Origin: Candidatus Aenigmatarchaeota archaeon
GTDB lineage: Archaea; Aenigmatarchaeota; Aenigmatarchaeia; CG10238-14; SpSt-28
Length of the DNA stretch: 64,000 bases
NCBI GenBank assembly: GCA_032249395.1
Contig: JAVVFY010000001.1
Location: forward strand, 64,825 to 128,824
Reading direction: 5' to 3'
Shown: piece after piece, positions 6,364 through 42,892 of the stretch
Position numbering within the stretch: the stretch's first letter is position 1
Layout: each line of letters starts with the position of its first letter
Translations under genes and position numbers: made by a program
Notes under the pieces: model-generated
Seen by the model: only the letters and a program-made list of their open reading frames with translations
Told to the model about the DNA's origin: nothing
The model's database searches: none

Positions 6364-6463
6364 GCCCTGGTAGCTCAACGGTAGAGCACCCGCCTTGTAT
6401 CGCTAGTTTGACTGATGATAGCAAGCTAGCGGGGGGTTGAGGGTTCAAATCCCTCCCAGGGCT
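6364..6463 (+). tRNA. tRNA-Thr (anticodon UGU) with a 28-nt canonical 37/38 intron (about 6400-6427)
   Basis: Acceptor GCCCTGG/CCAGGGC, discriminator U, anticodon TGT at 6396-6398. BHB check: positions 32-35 (cttg) pair with intron caag (6422-6425), followed by the bulge ct|a. Confidence 0.85.
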
Positions 6464-18236: not shown

Positions 18237-18328
18237 TGGGCTCGGTGGGATTTGAACCCACGACCCCCCGCTTTCTTAGGAGCATCGCCATATAAGGCGG
18301 GTGCTCCACCAGGCTAAGCTACGAGCCC
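18237..18328 (-). tRNA. tRNA-Ile with anticodon UAU and an 18-nt canonical intron
   Basis: The reverse complement folds as GGGCTCG...CCCGC-CTTATA|tggcgatgctcctaagaa|A-GCGGG...GTGGG-TTCAAAT-CCCAC-CGAGCCC-A. BHB check: CUUA (positions 32-35) pairs with intron UAAG, followed by the bulge aa|A. Confidence 0.8.
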
Positions 18329-20575: not shown

Positions 20576-22935
20576 ATGAAGTTAGAGCCTAAGCTTGAGG
20601 AAATAAGGTGGAATATAGCAAAAGAAAAGGAAATACTTGAAGAATGGGCCAAGAGAAAAGTTTATAAGTTTGAATTAAATAATAAAAAAGTCTTTTCTAT
20701 AGACACGCCACCTCCCTACCCGAGACCATTTTAAATGGCGGTAATGGGAGGCCGTGGCACGTAGGTGCAGCTTCTCACTACTCTCAAATAGATATGATTG
20801 CTAGAGCAGCTCGAATGTTAGGTTTTTCTGTTTATTTTCCAATTGGTATGGATAGGAATGGAATACCGGTAGAAAGATACGCAGAAAAGAGATTTAATAT
20901 AAACATAAATTCTACTCCACGAGAAGAATTCTTAAAGTATTGTAAGATGGCTCTAGATGAACTAGAAAAAGAAATGATTGAAATAATGAAAAGACTTGGA
21001 TTAAGCGGAGATTTTGATAATTATTATAGAACCGATAGCGAAGAATACAGAGCTTTAACACAAGCAACTTTTATCGAACTTTGGAATAAGGGTTTAATTT
21101 ATTTTGATACTCGACCAAACAACTATTGCCCAGTTTGTAAAACAACTATCGCTGATGCTGAAGTTGTTTATGAGGAATTGCCGACCAAATTGGTTTATAT
21201 TAAGTTTAGAACGACAGATAATGAAGAATTCATAGTAACAACCACAAGACCAGAACTTTTATGTGCATGCCAAGCGATTTTAGTTAATCCCGAAGATTCT
21301 AGATACAAGCATTTGGTTGGTAAAAAAGCATTAATTCCACTATATAATAGAGAGGTACCAATTTTGGCACATCCTATAGTTAAAATTGATTTTGGAAGCG
21401 GAATAGAAATGGTTTGCAGTTACGGTGATTATAATGATGTTATGCTATTTAGAGAGTTAGGTTTGAAGGAAATTGTATCAATAGATGAAGACGGAAGAAT
21501 GACGGAAGCTTCAGGGAAATATGCAGGTTTAAAAGTTGAAGAGGCTAGAGAAAAAATTATTGAAGATTTAACGAATGCAGGTCTCATTGTTAAGGTAGAT
21601 GAAATAATACACAGAGTACCCACTTGCGAGAGAAGCCACAACCCCATAGAAATAATTCCTATGCAAGAGATTTACTTAAAGCAAATAGAATTTAAAGATA
21701 AGATGATGGAAATTGGAAAAGAATTAGAATTTTTGCCAGAATTTCATAGACAACTTTTATTGAATTGGATAAATTCTATAACAAGGGATTGGCCTATATC
21801 TAGGAGAAGATATTATGCAACGGAAATCCCTATTTGGTATTGTAAGAAATGTGGCAAGCCGCATATTCCAAAACCAGGAAAATATTACATCCCTTGGAAA
21901 GAGAAAGCACCATTCGAGAAATGCGATAATTGCGGTTCGGGAGAATTTTACGGAGAAACAAGAACTTTCGATACCTGGTTCGATTCTAGTATAACACCCC
22001 TATTTATCTCTAAATTTGGTAAAGACGAGCAATTCTTCAATAGAGTTTTTCCTGTAACAGTGAGACCACAAGGAAAGGATATAGTTAGGACCTGGCTATA
22101 TTATACTTTACTAAGATGTTATCAATTAACTAATAAAAGGGCATTCGAAAAAGCATGGGTTAGTGGCTATTGTGTAGATGAAAAAGGAGAGAAGATGAGC
22201 AAAAGTAAAGGAAATGTTATTGATCCTGTTCCTTTAATTGAAAAGTATGGGGCCGATGCATTTAGATTTTGGAGTGCAAGCGAATCAAGCTTAGGCTTCG
22301 ACTTTAGAGCCAGCGAAAAAAGAGTAGAAAATGCATATAAATTTATAACAAAGCTATGGAATATAGCGAGATACGTTTCTCAATTCCCGATAATAGAAGA
22401 ATTTGATGAAACAAAACTTTTGCCTAGCGATAAATGGATTTTAAGCGAGTTAAGAATAGCATATGAGAAATGTATAGATGGCTATAAGAAGTTCAATTTT
22501 TTCATTCCTTCTAATTGTATGAGAGAGTTTCTATGGAACTTATTTGCTTCTAATTATGTAGAAATGGTTAAAAAGAGGGCCTATGGTGAAGGTTTTAGCA
22601 AAGAAGAGCAAAAAGCCGCGTGGTATACTTTACATAAAGTCATGAAAATTTCTTTAAAGCTACTCGCACCAATAATACCTTTTATAACTGAGTATATTTG
22701 GCTTAAGTTGTATAGCAAAGATAGCCTTCATACTCAAAAATTCGACGATAAGATAGAGGTGGAAGACTTTTCGAAATATACTTCCATTTTATTGGAGTTT
22801 AACTCGTTAGTGTGGAGAAAGAAAAAGGAGTTAGGCATTAGCCTAAAGGAGAGAATAAAAATTGAAATTCCCGAAGAGCTAAAGATATTTGAGAATGAAC
22901 TAAGAATTATGCATAATATTGATACTTCTACTTAG
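20576..22935 (+). CDS. valS: Valyl-tRNA synthetase, reading frame interrupted at the HIGH motif
   Basis: - N-terminal 49 codons read ...VFSIDTPPPYP, then TAA at 20732-20734.
- The rest continues in the -1 frame: GRPWHVGAASHYSQIDMIARAARM..., RPQGKDIVRTW, DTWFDSS, KMSKSKGNVIDP.
- The ORF track only shows 20794..22935. Confidence 0.85.
20723..20745 (+). other. Candidate 23-nt BHB-type intervening sequence in valS
   Basis: Removing agaccattttaaatggcggtaat restores the frame (CCG|GGG). The segment caps a GC-rich helix-bulge-4 bp helix-bulge hairpin (20707-20758). See findings. Confidence 0.4.
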
Positions 22936-36418: not shown

Positions 36419-39205
36419 TTATCCTAAAATTCCATAACCAACTAATCTCCATCTTCCAGCAACTTGCCTCAAAACAGCTATTTTTGTTTTTACACCTTGT
36501 TCAAATATCAGTGGAATGCTCAACTGACAACTTATAAAGTTCTTTCTTGCTTCTTTAACAACACCAACACTTCTTTGATTTGCTAAATGAATCAAAATCT
36601 TTTCCCCAATTTTTATTGGAGGCAAAGCTTGAATTTCTCTAGCTCCATAAACTCTCTCAAACTCGAAATACTCAAAACTTATTTCATGAGTCTCTTTTGG
36701 CAATGTTCCCTTCAAACCAACAACACTTCCAACTAGACCATCAGCTTTCGTTAAGCTTGGATCTAGTTTTGTTAGAACACCAAGCAATCCTCCTGGACCA
36801 GCTTCTTTTATATCTTTATTAGCTTTTCTCAATCCAACAATTTCAGTTTCTAAAGGCTGATATTTATTTTCAATTTTTATTCCAGGTTTAATTTCTATAT
36901 TGTCGCCAACTTTAAGTCTTCCTTCAACAACACTTCCCCCTAAAATTCCACCAACAATTTTATCTATCTCTGTCCCTGGTTTATTAACATCAAAGCTTCT
37001 TATAACTAAAAACTTTGGATTTTTAGTTTCATCTCTTTTTGGTGTTGGTATATACTTCTCTATAGCTTCAAAAACTCTATCAATGTTAACTCTTTGAGTA
37101 GAAGAAACAGGAATTATTGGAGCATTTTCCGCAATTGTTCCTTTCACAAATTCCTTAATCTCTTGATAATTCTTCAAAGCTTGTTCTTTTGTTATAGTAT
37201 CAATTTTTGTTTGAACAATAACAATTTTATCAATACCAACAATTTCCAATGCTTTCAAATGCTCAACAGTTTGAGGTTGTGGGCATTTTTCATTCGCAGC
37301 AATAACAAGTAAAGCACCATCTATAACACCAGCTCCCGTTAGAACAGTTGCTGTTAGAATTTCATGACCAGGAGAATCCACAAAACTAACAGTCCTTTGA
37401 ATTTCTGTATCTGCAAAACAAAAAGGACATTTCTTGCTGTTAGAATATCTTCCACATTGAGGACATTTATAAATTGTAGCATCAGCGTATCCAAGCTTTA
37501 TAGTTATTCCTCTTTTCAATTCTTCAGAATGTTGCAAGGTAAGCTTTCCTGTTAAAGCTTGAACTAAAACTGTATTGTGCAGAAGGAAGAAACCTAAACC
37601 TCCAAAGAAAGTGTGAGTTTGGGGAACACTCAAATCAAAAATTATTTCATCTTTCACTTCTTCATACTCAACTTTCTTAACTTTTTCCACTCTCAAACTA
37701 CCAAAGTAAAGAGTTTTAATCCTTTGTATTTCTTCTTTAGCCTCCCTTATTTTTTCATTCAAATAATTCCTAAGCAATTTCAAAGCTTTCTTGTCTTTTC
37801 TCTTAACCATTCTCGAGAAAGAAGTAGGTGGTATATTAGTAGTTATTGCTACCTTCCTGAGCGGAACGACTTTTTCTAAATCTTCGTCTTTTAAACTACC
37901 CAAAAATTTAATTCTTTCTTCAACAAACTCGATAATTCTTTCTAGCAACTCATAGGTGATTCTCCCTTTTTTCCTGACCTCCTCTATTGCTTTGTAAATC
38001 TTTTGCTTCTTAAATCCGTCACCTTTTCTTTTATCGTTAATAAGAAGGAAAGTTAACCTCTTAATGTTTTCTTTATCCATTTTTATAGAGTCGTATGTTT
38101 TCATTCTTGTCTTATGATTTTCAAAAAGTTCTAAAAGTTGTAAAGCCTTTAACTTCTTTTTTCCCTCCAGCCCTATTTCTTTTAGAAACTTTTCTGCCTC
38201 TTTACCATATAATGCCAACCTGAAATATTCTTTACCCTTAACTTTCCTCTTATAAATTTTAGGAAATATTCCAAATTCATATAAAGAAATTAAGATGAAA
38301 TTAACCAAAGTTTGAGATACTTGAGACAGTTCTATCCCTCTAGCCTTGAGGTTTATATGCCCGTCTAAAGAGAAAAACCACTTAAGATAAGTTTTTCTGA
38401 GTTCTTTTGGTAAATATAAAAACCAACCCTTTAAGCTTTTGCTACTTCCCCCCAAGATCTTCTTAAAATAATAGAAAGCTATTTTAGGTTGTATTATGTA
38501 GTCTTTCCCCTTTTCCAAATGAAAAGAATAACCTAGTGAGCTTAAATATTCTAACACTTCAGTTAGCATTTCCTTTTCTTCTTTTTGAGATAACATCAAT
38601 CTCTTTCCTACATGTCCTTCTGCATTAATGAAGGCCAACAATTTTACAAAATCTTCATCCAATTTAAATCCCTTTACTTTTGCTTTCTTACCATTCTTAA
38701 AAACAATCTTGTAAAACTCTCCATCTTTTTCCAATATCTTACAAAACTCCTTTATGTTTTCCTCGAAGTCTATTTGCTTCTGAGCTTCCTGAATATTTGA
38801 ATTTAAATTTATCCTTCCGAGCACAAAAACCTCATCTCCTTCTTTAATTTCTGATGCTCTTCTCCATTCACATCTACCATTCTCGTGAACTAAAAGAGGA
38901 TGATCTGGCGAAACTTCCACCTCTCTTCCATTAGAGGTTGTGATTTTTACAAGCTTACCAGAATACCTTTGAAAGAATCTTTTAGCTTCGCCCACATATA
39001 TTTTCCCATTGTCATCCAATGTATATGTCCTTATTTTGTCATTTTCTAGATAAACCTCATCTTTAAAATTAGGAATACCTGTTAGCAACTCTTTACCAGT
39101 CAAAATTTCGTTGTTTAGCAAAATAGGTGTATTTATTCTTACACACTTCCCATGGCTTACGTGACCCAAGACGCCTATGTTAACCTCTGGTAATTCTTTG
39201 TCCAT
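36419..39205 (-). CDS. eif2g: Translation initiation factor aIF2 gamma subunit, interrupted by an intein
   Basis: The exteins read MDKELPEVNIGVLGHVSHGK | TVLVQALTGK...CPQCG..CPFC zinc knuckle...DSPGH...QTKID... (20 + 384 aa). Confidence 0.9.
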   Translation of the reverse strand: MDKELPEVNIGVLGHVSHGKCVRINTPILLNNEILTGKELLTGIPNFKDEVYLENDKIRTYTLDDNGKIYVGEAKRFFQRYSGKLVKITTSNGREVEVSPDHPLLVHENGRCEWRRASEIKEGDEVFVLGRINLNSNIQEAQKQIDFEENIKEFCKILEKDGEFYKIVFKNGKKAKVKGFKLDEDFVKLLAFINAEGHVGKRLMLSQKEEKEMLTEVLEYLSSLGYSFHLEKGKDYIIQPKIAFYYFKKILGGSSKSLKGWFLYLPKELRKTYLKWFFSLDGHINLKARGIELSQVSQTLVNFILISLYEFGIFPKIYKRKVKGKEYFRLALYGKEAEKFLKEIGLEGKKKLKALQLLELFENHKTRMKTYDSIKMDKENIKRLTFLLINDKRKGDGFKKQKIYKAIEEVRKKGRITYELLERIIEFVEERIKFLGSLKDEDLEKVVPLRKVAITTNIPPTSFSRMVKRKDKKALKLLRNYLNEKIREAKEEIQRIKTLYFGSLRVEKVKKVEYEEVKDEIIFDLSVPQTHTFFGGLGFFLLHNTVLVQALTGKLTLQHSEELKRGITIKLGYADATIYKCPQCGRYSNSKKCPFCFADTEIQRTVSFVDSPGHEILTATVLTGAGVIDGALLVIAANEKCPQPQTVEHLKALEIVGIDKIVIVQTKIDTITKEQALKNYQEIKEFVKGTIAENAPIIPVSSTQRVNIDRVFEAIEKYIPTPKRDETKNPKFLVIRSFDVNKPGTEIDKIVGGILGGSVVEGRLKVGDNIEIKPGIKIENKYQPLETEIVGLRKANKDIKEAGPGGLLGVLTKLDPSLTKADGLVGSVVGLKGTLPKETHEISFEYFEFERVYGAREIQALPPIKIGEKILIHLANQRSVGVVKEARKNFISCQLSIPLIFEQGVKTKIAVLRQVAGRWRLVGYGILG
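37574..39145 (-). mobile_element. Intein (524 aa) with a LAGLIDADG homing endonuclease domain, inserted in the P-loop GHVxHGK|T
   Basis: Starts with Cys (CVRINTPILL) and contains SPDHPLLV (block B), LLAFINAEGHV and WFFSLDGHIN (LAGLIDADG x2). It ends ...GFFLLHN followed by Thr. Confidence 0.85.
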
Positions 39206-41764: not shown

Positions 41765-41829
41765 GGTTTATAAGAATCTCGATAAATATAAAAAACAGAG
41801 AATATATTATATAGGGTAGCGGGGTTTAT

Positions 41830-41948
41830 AGCGGGGTAGGGCAGCCTGGAGTGCCCGCCGACGACAGGGCGGAGGGCTCATAACCCGGAGGTCGTTGGTT
41901 CAAATCCAAAGAGGGTAAGTCTAACTTGCCTTCGGGAAACCCCCGCTA
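41830..41948 (+). tRNA. Initiator tRNA-Met (CAU) with two non-canonical intervening sequences (about 41861-41874 and 41910-41939)
   Basis: - Acceptor AGCGGGG/CCCCGCT (A1:U72, A73).
- D arm GGGC-AGCCTGGAGT-GCCC.
- Anticodon arm CCG[14 nt]GG-CTCATAA-CCCGG (three G:C pairs).
- Variable loop AGGTC.
- T arm GTTGG-TTCAAAT-CCAA[30 nt]C. Confidence 0.7.
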
Positions 41949-42005
41949 TTATCCCGCTATCCTAACCCACTCTCTTCCTTCTTTCTTATATATTTTTAGC
42001 CACTC

Positions 42006-42892
42006 CTAAACTCTCGAATTAGTTGGGAAGTTTTCAATTATATAAACTGCATCTTCCAATTTTTCTCTTTTCCTTATGATTGAAGAAGAAATAAATCTCA
42101 AGAATTTTTTAACATTATTCAAACCTGAGGAGGTTAATCCATAAACTGTCTCATTCGCAGTATAAATTTTACCCCATATCTTTACTTTATGTCCTTTTTT
42201 GATTTTCGGATAAATTTTTGAAGTAATACCAAAATTATCTCTTAGCAGATTCTTCACAAATTTCAGAATTTTTATATTAGTATTAACAATACCAAAACCA
42301 ACTCTAAAATTTTTACCACATGAAATAATAGTAAATCCATCTGAATCGAATAAACCTCTAATAAAATCAGTTGGATATTCTTTTACATAATTCATTAGAT
42401 ATTCGGTTTCTTTCGAAAGAAAATGAAAGAGCATCTTATTAGAAACTGACACCACATAACCTTTTCCACCTTTACGAAGGAAACCATTTTCTGTTCTTAT
42501 TTTGTAGCCACCAGGAAAGTTTAACAACTTTGATATTTGATTTGAAAAATACTCAGCAAAATCTCTATCTTTAGTTCTAAGAATAAACTTATATTGATAA
42601 TTTTTCTTCTCATTCTTCAACGTCCCATCACCAAATAAAACTCCTATTATGTAGCTAAGCTCCTTAGAGGGGTGGGTATAAAAATTCTTAGCTGTTTGCA
42701 GGTTTTATGTCTATTAGATATCCATCGGTATATTGTCTTCTTTCTGATTAATAGATTGTATTTTTTCAAAATCTCATTCCTAATTTCTGACGACTTCAAA
42801 CCTTTTTTATTAAGAAGGAGAGCATACTCATAAATTTTCAGCCTCAAATCAATTGACAATTTTCTGACATCAATCTCTTTCATTTTAATCAT
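42006..42892 (-). pseudogene. Free-standing double-motif LAGLIDADG homing endonuclease with an N-terminal HTH, frameshifted
   Basis: The N-terminal part (42647..42892) ends ...IYRWISNRHKTCKQLR... The -1 frame continues ...FYTHPSKELSYIIGVLFGDGTLKNEKK...FIRGLFDSDGFT... Both LAGLIDADG motifs are intact. The single frameshift lies near an A4/T5 run. Confidence 0.7.

What the first reader, a model, noticed from the sequence alone, without database searches (positions are those of the whole stretch)
41811..41970. Initiator tRNA-Met with two non-canonical intervening sequences and duplicated acceptor halves forming a leader/trailer helix
A cloverleaf for tRNAiMet can be built only if two segments are removed. 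The cloverleaf features are A1:U72, A73, three G:C pairs closing CTCATAA, and a TTCAAAT T-loop.
- About 14 nt lie inside the 5' strand of the anticodon stem (around 41861-41874, between CCG and GG).
- 30 nt lie between the fourth and fifth nucleotides of the 3' T-stem strand (41910-41939).
- Neither is at the canonical 37/38 site, and I could not draw a strict BHB for them.

Both acceptor halves are also tandemly duplicated outside the gene:
- tagcggggt occurs at 41817-41825 and 41829-41837.
- cccgctat occurs at 41942-41949 and 41953-41960.

As a result, leader 41814-41824 (gggtagcgggg) can pair over 11 bp (two G:U) with trailer 41952-41962 (tcccgctatcc). This stacks a second helix under the acceptor stem across a 5 x 4 nt internal loop. 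Duplication at both ends is not what a tRNA-targeting integrase leaves behind, since that duplicates only one end. It suggests an end-processing or circularisation signal.
Basis: partly seen in the sequence, partly recalled or inferred. Interest (0 to 1): 0.7.

Follow-up and report, generated by a model that had tools for sequence, protein, structure and literature searches.

The report
Twice-interrupted initiator tRNA with end clamp
This is the initiator tRNA gene of a heat-loving DPANN archaeon, interrupted by two small introns and flanked by sequences that pair into a conserved helix, which probably holds the tiny last exon in place while the tRNA is spliced.

Summary
Removing 41861-41874 and 41910-41939 gives a perfect 75-nt tRNA-Met(CAT) with initiator features. 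The two repeat pairs are exact, and leader 41812-41825 pairs with trailer 41951-41964 (14 bp, two G·U). The locus is identical in three independent assemblies.

The organism is a thermophilic Aenigmarchaeota. I recovered the syntenic locus (AspRS, Orc1/Cdc6, iMet, GTPase) from about 12 related lineages.
- **Introns:** both inserts are relaxed bulge-helix-bulge introns. All 166 alignment cells pair and six pairs show compensatory change.
- **Leader/trailer helix:** present in every lineage that has the T-stem intron. 11 of 14 pairs changed on both sides. In two lineages the arm sequences are unrelated to the acceptor stem.
- **What is conserved:** pairing, not the duplication.
- **Geometry:** spacer lengths vary and no BHB can be drawn, so a circularisation or endonuclease signal is not supported.

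The helix occurs only where the last exon is 9 nt long; 17 other archaeal iMet loci lack it. Folding energies suggest that exon would dissociate at 70-80 °C without the helix. My best reading, which is an inference, is a precursor clamp analogous to the joining helices of split tRNAs. I found no prior description. It is a new variant of a known kind.

The parts
41784..41793 (+). Putative TATA box (AAATATAAAA) for a transcript that starts at the leader arm
   Evidence: Inference from layout. The window's other five tRNAs show the same order: a TATA-like box, 5-10 nt containing G/C, an AT-rich stretch, then the start. In nine lineages this layout tracks the first leader element and not A1. No transcript data.
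41802..41811 (+). Conserved AT-rich box (AATATATTAT) immediately upstream of the leader arm. Probably a promoter-proximal element; the alternative is a second TATA box.
   Evidence: It lies 0-4 nt upstream of the first leader element in most lineages, whatever the distance to A1 (16-38 nt).
41812..41825 (+). Leader arm of the leader/trailer helix (TAGGGTAGCGGGGT). It contains the upstream copy of the 5' acceptor half.
   Evidence: Pairs with 41951-41964. 11 of 14 pairs show changes on both sides across seven lineages.
41826..41829 (+). 5' spacer (TTAT). A-2 and U-1 can pair with U74 and A73.
   Evidence: MFE fold. Spacer length varies from 4 to 22 nt among lineages.
41830..41860 (+). Exon 1, tRNA positions 1-29
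   Evidence: The spliced sequence is a perfect tRNA-Met(CAT). The exon is nearly invariant in relatives.
41861..41874 (+). Intron 1, 14 nt, at 29/30 in the 5' strand of the anticodon stem. Relaxed BHB: outer helix 41853-54/41876-77, central helix 41855-58/41869-72, bulges 41859-61 and 41873-75, inner pair 41862/41868.
   Evidence: All cells pair in eight lineages. The first central pair changes C:G to U:A together with a D-stem exon change. The BHB template was checked against a canonical intron in this window (6364 tRNA, read).
41875..41909 (+). Exon 2, tRNA positions 30-64 (anticodon CAT at 41879-41881)
41910..41939 (+). Intron 2, 30 nt, at 64/65 in the 3' strand of the T stem. Central helix 41905-07/41934-36, bulges 41908-10 and 41938-40, 9-bp hairpin 41911-19/41925-33. 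There is no contiguous outer helix.
   Evidence: All cells pair in nine lineages. Four hairpin pairs have compensatory changes.
41940..41948 (+). Exon 3, only 9 nt: C65, the 3' acceptor strand (66-72) and A73. CCA is not encoded.
41949..41950 (+). 3' spacer (TT)
41951..41964 (+). Trailer arm (ATCCCGCTATCCTA). It contains the downstream copy of the 3' acceptor half.
41976..41998 (+). First T-rich tracts after the gene (TTCTTTCTT ... TTTTT), the likely terminator. They lie 30-50 nt past A73. The other tRNAs have a T-run within about 3-12 nt of their 3' end.
   Evidence: Read directly. Inference.

Best explanation
**Shown**
- 41830-41948 is the initiator tRNA gene of a thermophilic Aenigmarchaeota archaeon. 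It is split into three exons by two small relaxed-BHB introns, at 29/30 and 64/65.
- The gene is flanked by a 14-nt leader arm and a 14-nt trailer arm that pair. This helix has been maintained by compensatory evolution throughout a clade, even where the arm sequence no longer resembles the acceptor stem.

**Inferred**
- The primary transcript starts at about 41812-41816 and runs to the T-tracts after 41976, so both arms are in the RNA.
- Intron 2 lies only 9 nt from the 3' end. Once the splicing endonuclease cuts it, the last exon is held only by the 7-bp acceptor stem.
- The leader/trailer helix acts as a clamp. It adds 10-14 bp, so the exon stays in place at high temperature until the RNA ligase (RtcB-type) joins it. 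It also stabilises the terminal helix while the T arm is missing.
- The flanks are then removed by ordinary end maturation (RNase P or an equivalent, and tRNase Z), and CCA is added.

**Origin**
The arms most likely arose by short tandem duplication of the two acceptor strands on top of an older 4-5 bp extension (TAGGAT/ATCCTA, as in L248). They then drifted under selection for pairing only.
For: **Gene and introns**
- ARAGORN calls the spliced sequence a perfect tRNA-Met.
- The BHB helices of both introns pair in 166 of 166 cells, with 6 compensatory pairs; 0 of 500 shuffles reach this, and slid controls pair at 32-55%.

**The helix is a selected RNA structure**
- It is present in the window and in L244, L200, L145, L250, L255, L256, L252, L247 and L249. 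In L246 the leader arm pairs with the true 3' strand plus the trailer.
- 92% of cells pair and 11 of 14 pairs changed on both sides; 0 of 500 shuffles reach this.
- Cognate duplexes are -21 to -33 kcal/mol. They beat nearly all shuffles, and in the divergent lineages they beat non-cognate pairings.
- Non-Watson-Crick pairs are six G(leader)·U(trailer) against one A·C. That pattern fits only + strand RNA.

**The leader is transcribed**
- The promoter layout tracks the first leader element and not A1.
- In L246, L252 and L247 the leader also carries CTCCAGGCTG, which is complementary to the D-loop. It co-occurs with an extra D-arm intron and pairs with the D-loop in the MFE folds of L246 and L252; in the L247 MFE it does not.

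**Clamp function**
- The helix is found only where the last exon is 9 nt long. 17 other archaeal iMet loci have leader/trailer duplexes of -2 to -13 kcal/mol with z within ±1.5. These include loci with T-loop introns and 13-21-nt last exons.
- Cofold binding of the 9-nt exon at 70 and 80 °C is -6.6 and -5.3 kcal/mol (Kd about 1e-4 M). With leader and trailer it is -18.8 and -14.2 kcal/mol (Kd about 1e-12 to 1e-9 M).
- Variable spacers fit a tether rather than a measured recognition motif.
Against: - There are no transcript data. The start site, the presence of the leader in RNA, and splicing itself are all inferred.
- The link between the helix and the 64/65 intron rests on a single clade, so it is effectively one evolutionary event.
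- The energy values extrapolate nearest-neighbour parameters to high temperature and ignore proteins. The growth temperature is inferred only from GC-rich tRNAs and hot-spring relatives.
- A leader/trailer stem of about 23 bp should hinder RNase P and tRNase Z, and I could not show that this lineage has RNase P. The window's other tRNAs look nearly leaderless.
- In L246 the leader arm competes with the real 5' acceptor strand, which fits a simple clamp poorly.
- The windows used for the covariation count were anchored on the helix by hand, and there are only seven sequences.
Confidence: 0.5

Rival explanations
1. The helix orders or protects processing. It hides both termini from RNase P, tRNase Z and exonucleases (exosome, RNase J-type) until the introns are out, or it lengthens precursor half-life. 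Holding the exon is not its main role.
For: The same conserved helix. In the window it extends the acceptor stem through -1:73 and -2:74, which should block end-processing enzymes. The trailer arm is followed closely by the terminator T-tract, so it would cap the 3' end.
Against: It does not explain why only the iMet with a 9-nt last exon has the helix, while 17 other iMet loci and five other tRNAs in the window do not. With the T arm disrupted, end-processing enzymes should already fail to recognise the precursor. This reading is not exclusive of the clamp.
Confidence: 0.2
2. The helix is a nuclease recognition signal. In this reading the splicing endonuclease (a BHB-like motif, as in rRNA processing stems or permuted tRNAs) or a dsRNA-specific endonuclease excises or circularises the tRNA. 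This would possibly replace RNase P in a lineage whose other tRNAs look leaderless.
For: A 23-bp near-continuous stem in the window. The other tRNA promoters sit where transcription would start at the mature 5' end, as in RNase P-free Nanoarchaeum (PMC10100707). No RNase P RNA was found in the 64-kb window, which is uninformative for a whole genome.
Against: No arrangement of two 3-nt bulges separated by 4 bp places a cut at -1/+1 or 73/74 (and manual checks). Spacers vary from 4 to 22 nt and 0 to 6 nt, and helix length from 10 to 14 bp, so a cut measured from the helix would not give constant ends. Endonuclease products would be ligated into a circle, with A73 blocked for CCA addition.
Confidence: 0.1
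3. The helix is part of a structural switch. Because the arms copy the acceptor strands, the leader copy can pair with the real 3' strand, and the trailer copy with the real 5' strand. This would give alternative precursor folds that regulate the supply of initiator tRNA.
For: In the window, 41817-27 can pair with 41938-48 (11 nt, 91% complementary). In L246 the leader arm pairs with the true 3' strand plus TCCTA over 13 bp, and this is the MFE state.
Against: The arms of L247 and L249 are unrelated to the acceptor strands and cannot compete, yet the helix is kept. L246 looks like a secondary deletion of one 3' repeat unit from an L252-like state.
Confidence: 0.1
4. There is no RNA function. 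In this reading the repeats are a DNA-level feature, such as replication-slippage debris, terminal inverted repeats, an integration scar or a promoter element, and the leader arm is not transcribed.
For: The AATATATT box lies at -28 to -21 from A1 in the window, L145 and L200. That distance would fit a TATA box for a leaderless transcript.
Against: 11 of 14 pairs carry compensatory changes. The mismatches are strand-specific, six G·U to one A·C. The box follows the leader arm and not A1 in L246, L252 and L247. The locus is syntenic in all lineages, so it is not mobile. The repeats are 8-9 nt long and 11-12 nt apart, and there is no integrase.
Confidence: 0.05

Closest known systems
Archaeal tRNA genes with multiple non-canonical BHB introns (Thermoproteales, ARMAN/Micrarchaeota, other DPANN; PMC4033280, PMC4090602, PMC5829648)
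   Same: Small introns outside position 37/38, bounded by relaxed bulge-helix-bulge motifs. Standard tRNA finders miss them. They occur in lineages whose endonucleases have broad specificity.
   Different: In what I could read, those descriptions concern the introns only. Here the flanks also form a conserved helix, and one intron lies 9 nt from the 3' end.
Split tRNA genes of Nanoarchaeum equitans and some Desulfurococcales (PMC4090602, PMC4033280, PMC3218864)
   Same: GC-rich complementary sequences outside the mature tRNA bring two pieces together so they can be cut and ligated. They work as a tether at high temperature.
   Different: In split tRNAs the two pieces are separate transcripts. 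The helix sits at the split site, forms a BHB and is itself removed by the splicing endonuclease. Here there is one transcript, the helix sits beyond the natural 5' and 3' ends, it has no BHB, and it must be removed by end-processing enzymes.
Circularly permuted tRNA genes (Cyanidioschyzon merolae; Thermofilum pendens tRNA-iMet and tRNA-Tyr; PMC3978253, PMC3218864)
   Same: Leader and trailer of the precursor pair with each other, and an initiator tRNA is affected in T. pendens.
   Different: Permuted genes have the 3' part upstream of the 5' part. Their leader/trailer helix carries a BHB that leads to a circular intermediate. Here the gene order is normal and there is no BHB.
Short leader/trailer pairing in eukaryotic nuclear pre-tRNAs, and rRNA processing stems (own knowledge for the former; PMC10515664 and PMC7714728 for archaeal rRNA)
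   Same: The flanks of a stable RNA pair to extend the terminal helix in the precursor.
   Different: In yeast the pairing is a few base pairs and is not known to covary as a unit. Archaeal rRNA stems contain BHB sites for the splicing endonuclease.

Membership tests
Archaeal initiator tRNA (tRNAiMet) | CAU anticodon in a standard cloverleaf | tested here: met
   ARAGORN calls the spliced 75-mer tRNA-Met(cat), with all stems perfect.
Archaeal initiator tRNA (tRNAiMet) | A1:U72, A73, three consecutive G:C pairs closing the anticodon loop, and the GGTTCAAATCC T arm shared with other archaeal initiators | tested here: met
   Cloverleaf. The same anticodon arm and T-loop occur in the 25 other archaeal iMet loci collected.
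Archaeal initiator tRNA (tRNAiMet) | It is expressed, spliced and used for initiation, and is the cell's initiator gene | not testable with these tools
   No transcript data and only 64 kb of the genome. There is no second iMet in the window. The exons are nearly invariant while the introns and flanks vary across about 12 lineages, which argues against a pseudogene.
BHB-type (endonuclease-spliced) archaeal tRNA introns | Two 3-nt bulges on opposite strands separated by a 4-bp helix, with the cut after the second bulge nucleotide | tested here: met
   Intron 1 has a 4-bp central helix CCGC/GCGG with bulges CG|A and AG|G. Intron 2 has 3 bp plus an A·A, with bulges AA|A and AA|C. These cuts give exactly the exon junctions needed. 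All cells pair in nine lineages.
BHB-type (endonuclease-spliced) archaeal tRNA introns | Flanking helices on both sides (the strict hBHBh' form) | tested here: inconclusive
   Intron 1 has a 2-bp outer helix and a 1-bp inner helix. Intron 2 has a 9-bp inner helix and no contiguous outer helix. Both are relaxed forms, which are known to need broad-specificity endonucleases (PMC5829648). The endonuclease of this organism was not examined.
Split (trans-spliced) tRNA | The pieces are encoded at separate loci with their own promoters | tested here: not met
   All three exons are contiguous within 119 nt on one strand.
Split (trans-spliced) tRNA | The complementary flanks form a BHB at the junction with the exons | tested here: not met
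   No BHB can be drawn at the leader/trailer junction, and the spacers vary.
Circularly permuted tRNA | The 3' segment is encoded upstream of the 5' segment, and the termini are joined through a leader/trailer BHB | tested here: not met
   The gene order is collinear. The leader holds a copy of the 5' strand, not of the 3' strand.
Integrase attachment-site duplication at a tRNA gene | A direct repeat of tens of bases of one tRNA end, bracketing an inserted element that carries an integrase | tested here: not met
   The repeats are 8-9 nt long, 11-12 nt apart and at both ends. There is no integrase nearby. The arrangement is syntenic and covaries across lineages.

The most novel reading that the evidence does not exclude
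The other tRNA genes of this archaeon look as if they are transcribed from their mature 5' ends. If so, the lineage may lack RNase P, as Nanoarchaeum does. In that case the base-paired 16-38-nt leader of pre-tRNAiMet must be removed by a pathway that is not yet known, and the conserved leader/trailer helix would be its recognition element rather than a passive clamp.
Probability: 0.12. Interest if true: 0.85.

Novelty: new variant of a known kind. Interest (0 to 1): 0.6.

Why it matters
Disrupted tRNA genes show how archaea rebuild functional RNAs from pieces, and they feed the debate on how tRNA genes became split.

This locus shows a strategy I found no description of. A contiguous tRNA gene has flanks that evolved into a covarying helix, and the helix appears only where an intron leaves a 9-nt terminal exon. 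If the clamp reading is right, it is a same-molecule counterpart of the joining helices of split tRNAs. It could also be a stepping stone towards splitting.

It gives a simple, testable rule for how thermophiles tolerate introns close to an RNA end. It also shows that standard tRNA finders can miss an essential gene in DPANN genomes, which affects estimates of genome completeness and tRNA complement.

Tried and rejected
1. **Genome-collection scan.** The pattern also matched bacterial initiator tRNAs followed by a chance CGCTA.
3. **A third and fourth intron inside the acceptor strands** (treating the outer copies as the real ends). Rejected. In a 12-nt repeat the would-be central helix strands are identical rather than complementary, and the L247 and L249 arms are not acceptor-like.
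4. **A BHB between leader and trailer** that would cut at -1/+1 and 73/74. None found, either in the scan or by hand in the window, L145 and L200.
5. **Leader copy pairing with the 3' end of intron 2** (GGGGTTT/AAACCCC) as part of the intron 2 BHB. Not conserved in L244 and others.
6. **MAFFT alignment of the leaders or the short arms**. Unreliable, so I replaced it with equal-length windows anchored on the TAGC/GCTA core. L249 and L252 were left out of the column count.
7. **Rfam at permissive thresholds over the locus**. Only noise.
8. **Replication-origin repeats next to orc1/cdc6.** The arms do not resemble origin recognition boxes, and they flank a GC-rich gene rather than an AT-rich unwinding region (own knowledge, not tested further).
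9. **A link between the neighbouring LAGLIDADG gene and the repeats.** The gene is absent from all relatives that keep the helix, so it is unrelated.
10. **RNase P status of the lineage.** Not resolvable from 64 kb or from the papers available.

Full report
**1. What is in the sequence**

The window is about 31% G+C. The stretch 41806-41978 is its largest GC-rich island. ARAGORN and Rfam find five other tRNAs in the window, three of them with canonical introns, but nothing at this locus, even at E ≤ 10.

TAGCGGGGT lies at 41817-25 and 41829-37, and CCCGCTAT at 41942-49 and 41953-60. AGCGGGG is expected only about 0.34 times per strand in the whole window.

Joining 41830-41860, 41875-41909 and 41940-41948 gives a 75-nt sequence that ARAGORN calls tRNA-Met(CAT). 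Every stem is perfect, and it has A1:U72, A73 and three G:C pairs above the anticodon loop. With either insert left in, it is not called tRNA-Met.

The region 41805-41975 folds at -85.9 kcal/mol against -59.2 ± 4.1 for shuffles. In that fold the leader 41812-25 pairs with the trailer 41951-64 (14 bp, two G·U), and the acceptor stem is extended by -1:73 and -2:74. Three independent assemblies carry the identical locus.

**2. Organism and relatives**

The upstream neighbour is an Orc1/Cdc6 protein. Its closest named homologues are from Candidatus Aenigmarchaeota/Aenigmatarchaeota, which are DPANN archaea. The GC-rich tRNAs in an AT-rich genome point to a thermophile; this is an inference.

The gene order is conserved: eIF2-gamma, AspRS, Orc1/Cdc6, iMet, GTPase, CBS protein, rhomboid. 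That let me recover the same locus from lineages whose Cdc6 is 99% to 57% identical to the window's, by fetching the contigs that encode Cdc6 homologues.
- A metagenome pattern scan gave L145, L200, L225 and L233, plus multi-intron iMet genes of other low-GC lineages.
- An earlier genome scan was largely wasted on bacterial initiator tRNAs. It contributed seven intron-less archaeal comparators.

**3. The two inserts are relaxed BHB introns**

I first checked the BHB template on a canonical intron in this window (the tRNA at 6364, sequence). Its central helix is CTTG/CAAG, its bulges are TA|T and CT|A, and the cut falls after the second bulge nucleotide.

- **Intron 1 (41861-74):** central helix CCGC (41855-58) / GCGG (41869-72), bulges CG|A and AG|G, a 2-bp outer helix and a single inner pair.
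- **Intron 2 (41910-39):** a 9-bp hairpin (41911-19/41925-33), a central helix of 3 bp plus an A·A (41904-07/41934-37), bulges AA|A and AA|C, and no contiguous outer helix.

These cuts give exactly the junctions the cloverleaf needs (29/30 and 64/65). Across nine lineages all 166 cells pair and six pairs have compensatory changes. No shuffle out of 500 reaches these values, and sliding the partners drops pairing to 32-55%. The first pair of the intron 1 central helix changes C:G to U:A together with a change in the D-stem exon.

Relaxed motifs of this kind need broad-specificity endonucleases, which are known in DPANN (PMC5829648). Intron content varies within the clade. L247 lacks intron 1. 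L246, L252, L249, L250 and L247 have further D-arm introns.

**4. The leader/trailer helix is conserved; the duplication is not**

Every lineage with the 64/65 intron has a leader arm that pairs with the 3' flank.

| Lineage | Leader arm | Trailer arm | Note |
|---|---|---|---|
| window | TAGGGTAGCGGGGT | ATCCCGCTATCCTA | 14 bp, two G·U |
| L244 | TAGGATAGCGGGA | TCCCGCTATCCTA | A:U at the two positions where the window has G·U |
| L200 | GGAGTAGCGGG | CCCGCTACTCC | |
| L145 | AAAGGTAGCAGGAG | CTCCTGCTACCTTT | |
| L250 | AAGGATAGTGGGA | TCCCACTATCCTT | L255 and L256 are variants |
| L252 | TAGGATAGCGGA | TCCCGCTATCCTA | |
| L247 | TGGGGTGGGA | TCCCACCCCA | unrelated to the acceptor |
| L249 | GAGTGGGGGGCA | TGTCCCCCACTC | unrelated to the acceptor |

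L246 has no 3' copy. Its leader arm pairs with the true 3' strand plus TCCTA. It looks like an L252-type locus that lost one 3' repeat unit (TCATCCCGCTA).

The pairing statistics are as follows.
- Cognate duplexes are -21 to -33 kcal/mol, and 0-3 of 300 shuffles do as well. In the divergent lineages the cognate pairing clearly beats non-cognate combinations.
- I aligned 14-nt natural windows anchored on the TAGC/GCTA core, using seven lineages and an artificial linker. 92% of cells pair, the unpaired cells all lie at the helix ends, 11 of 14 pairs have changes on both sides, and 0 of 500 shuffles reach this. The caveats are that the windows were anchored on the helix and that seven sequences is a small sample.
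- Non-Watson-Crick pairs inside the helices are six G(leader)·U(trailer) and one A·C (L255). This pattern fits RNA read from the + strand and does not fit a DNA-level inverted repeat.

The 71% relative L248 has only a 4-bp extension (GGAT/ATCC). The 57-59% relatives (L253, L254, L257) have the gene on the other strand and no helix. The likely history is an old short extension (TAGGAT...ATCCTA), then short tandem duplications of each acceptor strand, then drift under selection for pairing.

**5. Is the leader transcribed?**

Two AT-rich boxes precede the gene. The proximal one (AATATATT) lies at -28 to -21 from A1 in the window, which could mean a leaderless transcript. But in L246, L252 and L247 it lies about 38-47 nt from A1, and in most lineages it sits 0-4 nt upstream of the first leader element.

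The overall layout is a TATA-like box, 5-10 nt containing G/C, an 11-16-nt AT-rich stretch, and then the start. This matches the window's other five tRNA promoters only if the iMet start is the leader arm.

The leaders of L246, L252 and L247 also carry CTCCAGGCTG, the exact complement of the D-loop. It appears only where an extra intron precedes the D-loop. In the L246 and L252 MFE folds it pairs with the D-loop and supplies the helix beside that intron's 3' splice site; in the L247 MFE it does not pair with the D-loop.

The first T-tract is 30-50 nt past A73, whereas the other tRNAs have one within about 3-12 nt. I conclude that both arms are in the precursor. This is an inference, because there are no transcript data.

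**6. Mechanism**

The spacers between the helix and the tRNA ends vary from 4 to 22 nt on the 5' side and 0 to 6 nt on the 3' side, and helix length varies from 10 to 14 bp. No arrangement of two 3-nt bulges separated by 4 bp puts a cut at -1/+1 or 73/74 (and manual checks). A measured endonuclease or circularisation signal is therefore unlikely.

What the helix-bearing lineages share is intron 2 at 64/65, which leaves a 9-nt last exon.
- Among 26 archaeal iMet loci, only this clade has significant leader/trailer pairing.
- The other 17 loci lie at -2 to -13 kcal/mol with z within ±1.5. They include loci with T-loop introns and last exons of 13-21 nt.
- Cofolding gives the 9-nt exon a binding energy of -6.6 kcal/mol at 70 °C and -5.3 kcal/mol at 80 °C (Kd about 1e-4 M). 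With leader and trailer the values are -18.8 and -14.2 kcal/mol. These numbers are rough.

The best-supported reading is a clamp or scaffold. It keeps the terminal exon attached between cleavage and ligation, and it stabilises the acceptor helix while the T arm is absent.

Weak points:
- The association amounts to one evolutionary event.
- L246 fits a simple clamp awkwardly.
- It is unclear how the stem is later opened for end processing.
- RNase P status is unknown, and the other tRNAs look nearly leaderless, which is the condition described for RNase P-free Nanoarchaeum (PMC10100707).

**7. Comparison with known systems and novelty**

Multi-intron, split and permuted tRNA genes are well described (PMC4033280, PMC4090602, PMC3978253, PMC3218864). 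In split and permuted genes the complementary flanks build a BHB that the splicing endonuclease removes. Here the gene is contiguous and collinear, the helix lies beyond the natural ends, and there is no BHB.

It works like the joining helix of split tRNAs, but it is not a member of that class. Five library searches and six papers consulted gave no description of such a helix. The library lacks most subscription-journal papers, so this is not proof of absence.

I rate it a new variant of a known kind, with interest 0.6.

Noticed in passing
window 42006-42892 (minus strand): A free-standing LAGLIDADG homing-endonuclease-like gene (204 aa; Pfam LAGLIDADG_3, E = 2.7e-10) and an 81-aa ORF of unknown function lie between the iMet trailer and the GTPase gene. 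This roughly 1.1-kb block is absent from L200, L244, L246, L247, L250 and L252, where the GTPase gene follows the tRNA without this block, so it is a recent insertion next to the tRNA. It has no NCBIfam hit.
   Followed up: partly
window 36419-39205 (minus strand): The eIF2-gamma gene encodes 928 aa and carries an intein with its own LAGLIDADG domain. Relatives encode 404-406 aa. The intein endonuclease and the free-standing one 3 kb away are not detectably related.
   Followed up: partly
window 18237-18328 (minus strand): By my reading of the anticodon loop (CT-TAT-A followed by a canonical intron), this is tRNA-Ile with a UAU anticodon. From memory, that is rare in archaea and linked to loss of the agmatidine pathway in Nanoarchaeum and Korarchaeum. 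ARAGORN could not assign it.
   Followed up: no
window 1408, 6364, 18328(-), 25021, 46052: upstream 40 nt: All five other tRNA genes have a TATA-like box ending about 23-26 nt before the mature 5' end, and an AT-rich stretch running right up to it. This suggests leaderless or nearly leaderless transcripts, as in RNase P-free Nanoarchaeum. It raises the question of whether this lineage has RNase P.
   Followed up: partly
L246:3575-3584, L252:2575-2584 and L247:2939-2948 (approximate): The leaders of these three lineages contain CTCCAGGCTG, the exact reverse complement of the invariant D-loop segment CAGCCTGGAG. It appears only where an extra intron sits just before the D-loop, at different places in the leader. 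In the L246 and L252 MFE folds it pairs with the D-loop; in L247 it does not. This looks like a leader-supplied helix for a splice site.
   Followed up: partly
L004, L023, L038, L052 (Micrarchaeota) and L096 (Marsarchaeota), 20-35 nt downstream of iMet: A shared motif T(T)CCGCTAAT, resembling the 3' acceptor strand CCTCGCTA, sits in spacers that are otherwise dissimilar. The sample is biased, because my search pattern required CGCTA there. No matching leader complement was seen by eye.
   Followed up: no
L161, L181, L216, L218, L237, L127, L205 (metagenome contigs): Other lineages, mostly low-GC (two of the contigs are 52% and 60% GC), carry iMet genes with two or three introns in the D-loop, the 5' strand of the anticodon stem, and the T-stem or T-loop. 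Some share the 29/30-type position. All have plain T-rich flanks. Disrupted initiator tRNA genes appear to be widespread in these lineages.
   Followed up: partly
window 20702-20788: An intergenic GC-rich island (60% G+C in a 31% genome) between divergent ORFs. It has no Rfam match at E ≤ 1 and only weak predicted structure on either strand (z = -1.9 and -1.6).
   Followed up: partly
L246:3735-3760: Compared with its close relative L252, this lineage has lost exactly one 3' repeat unit (TCATCCCGCTA). Its leader arm now pairs with the genuine 3' acceptor strand and competes with the real 5' strand. The direct repeats are evidently prone to slippage.
   Followed up: partly
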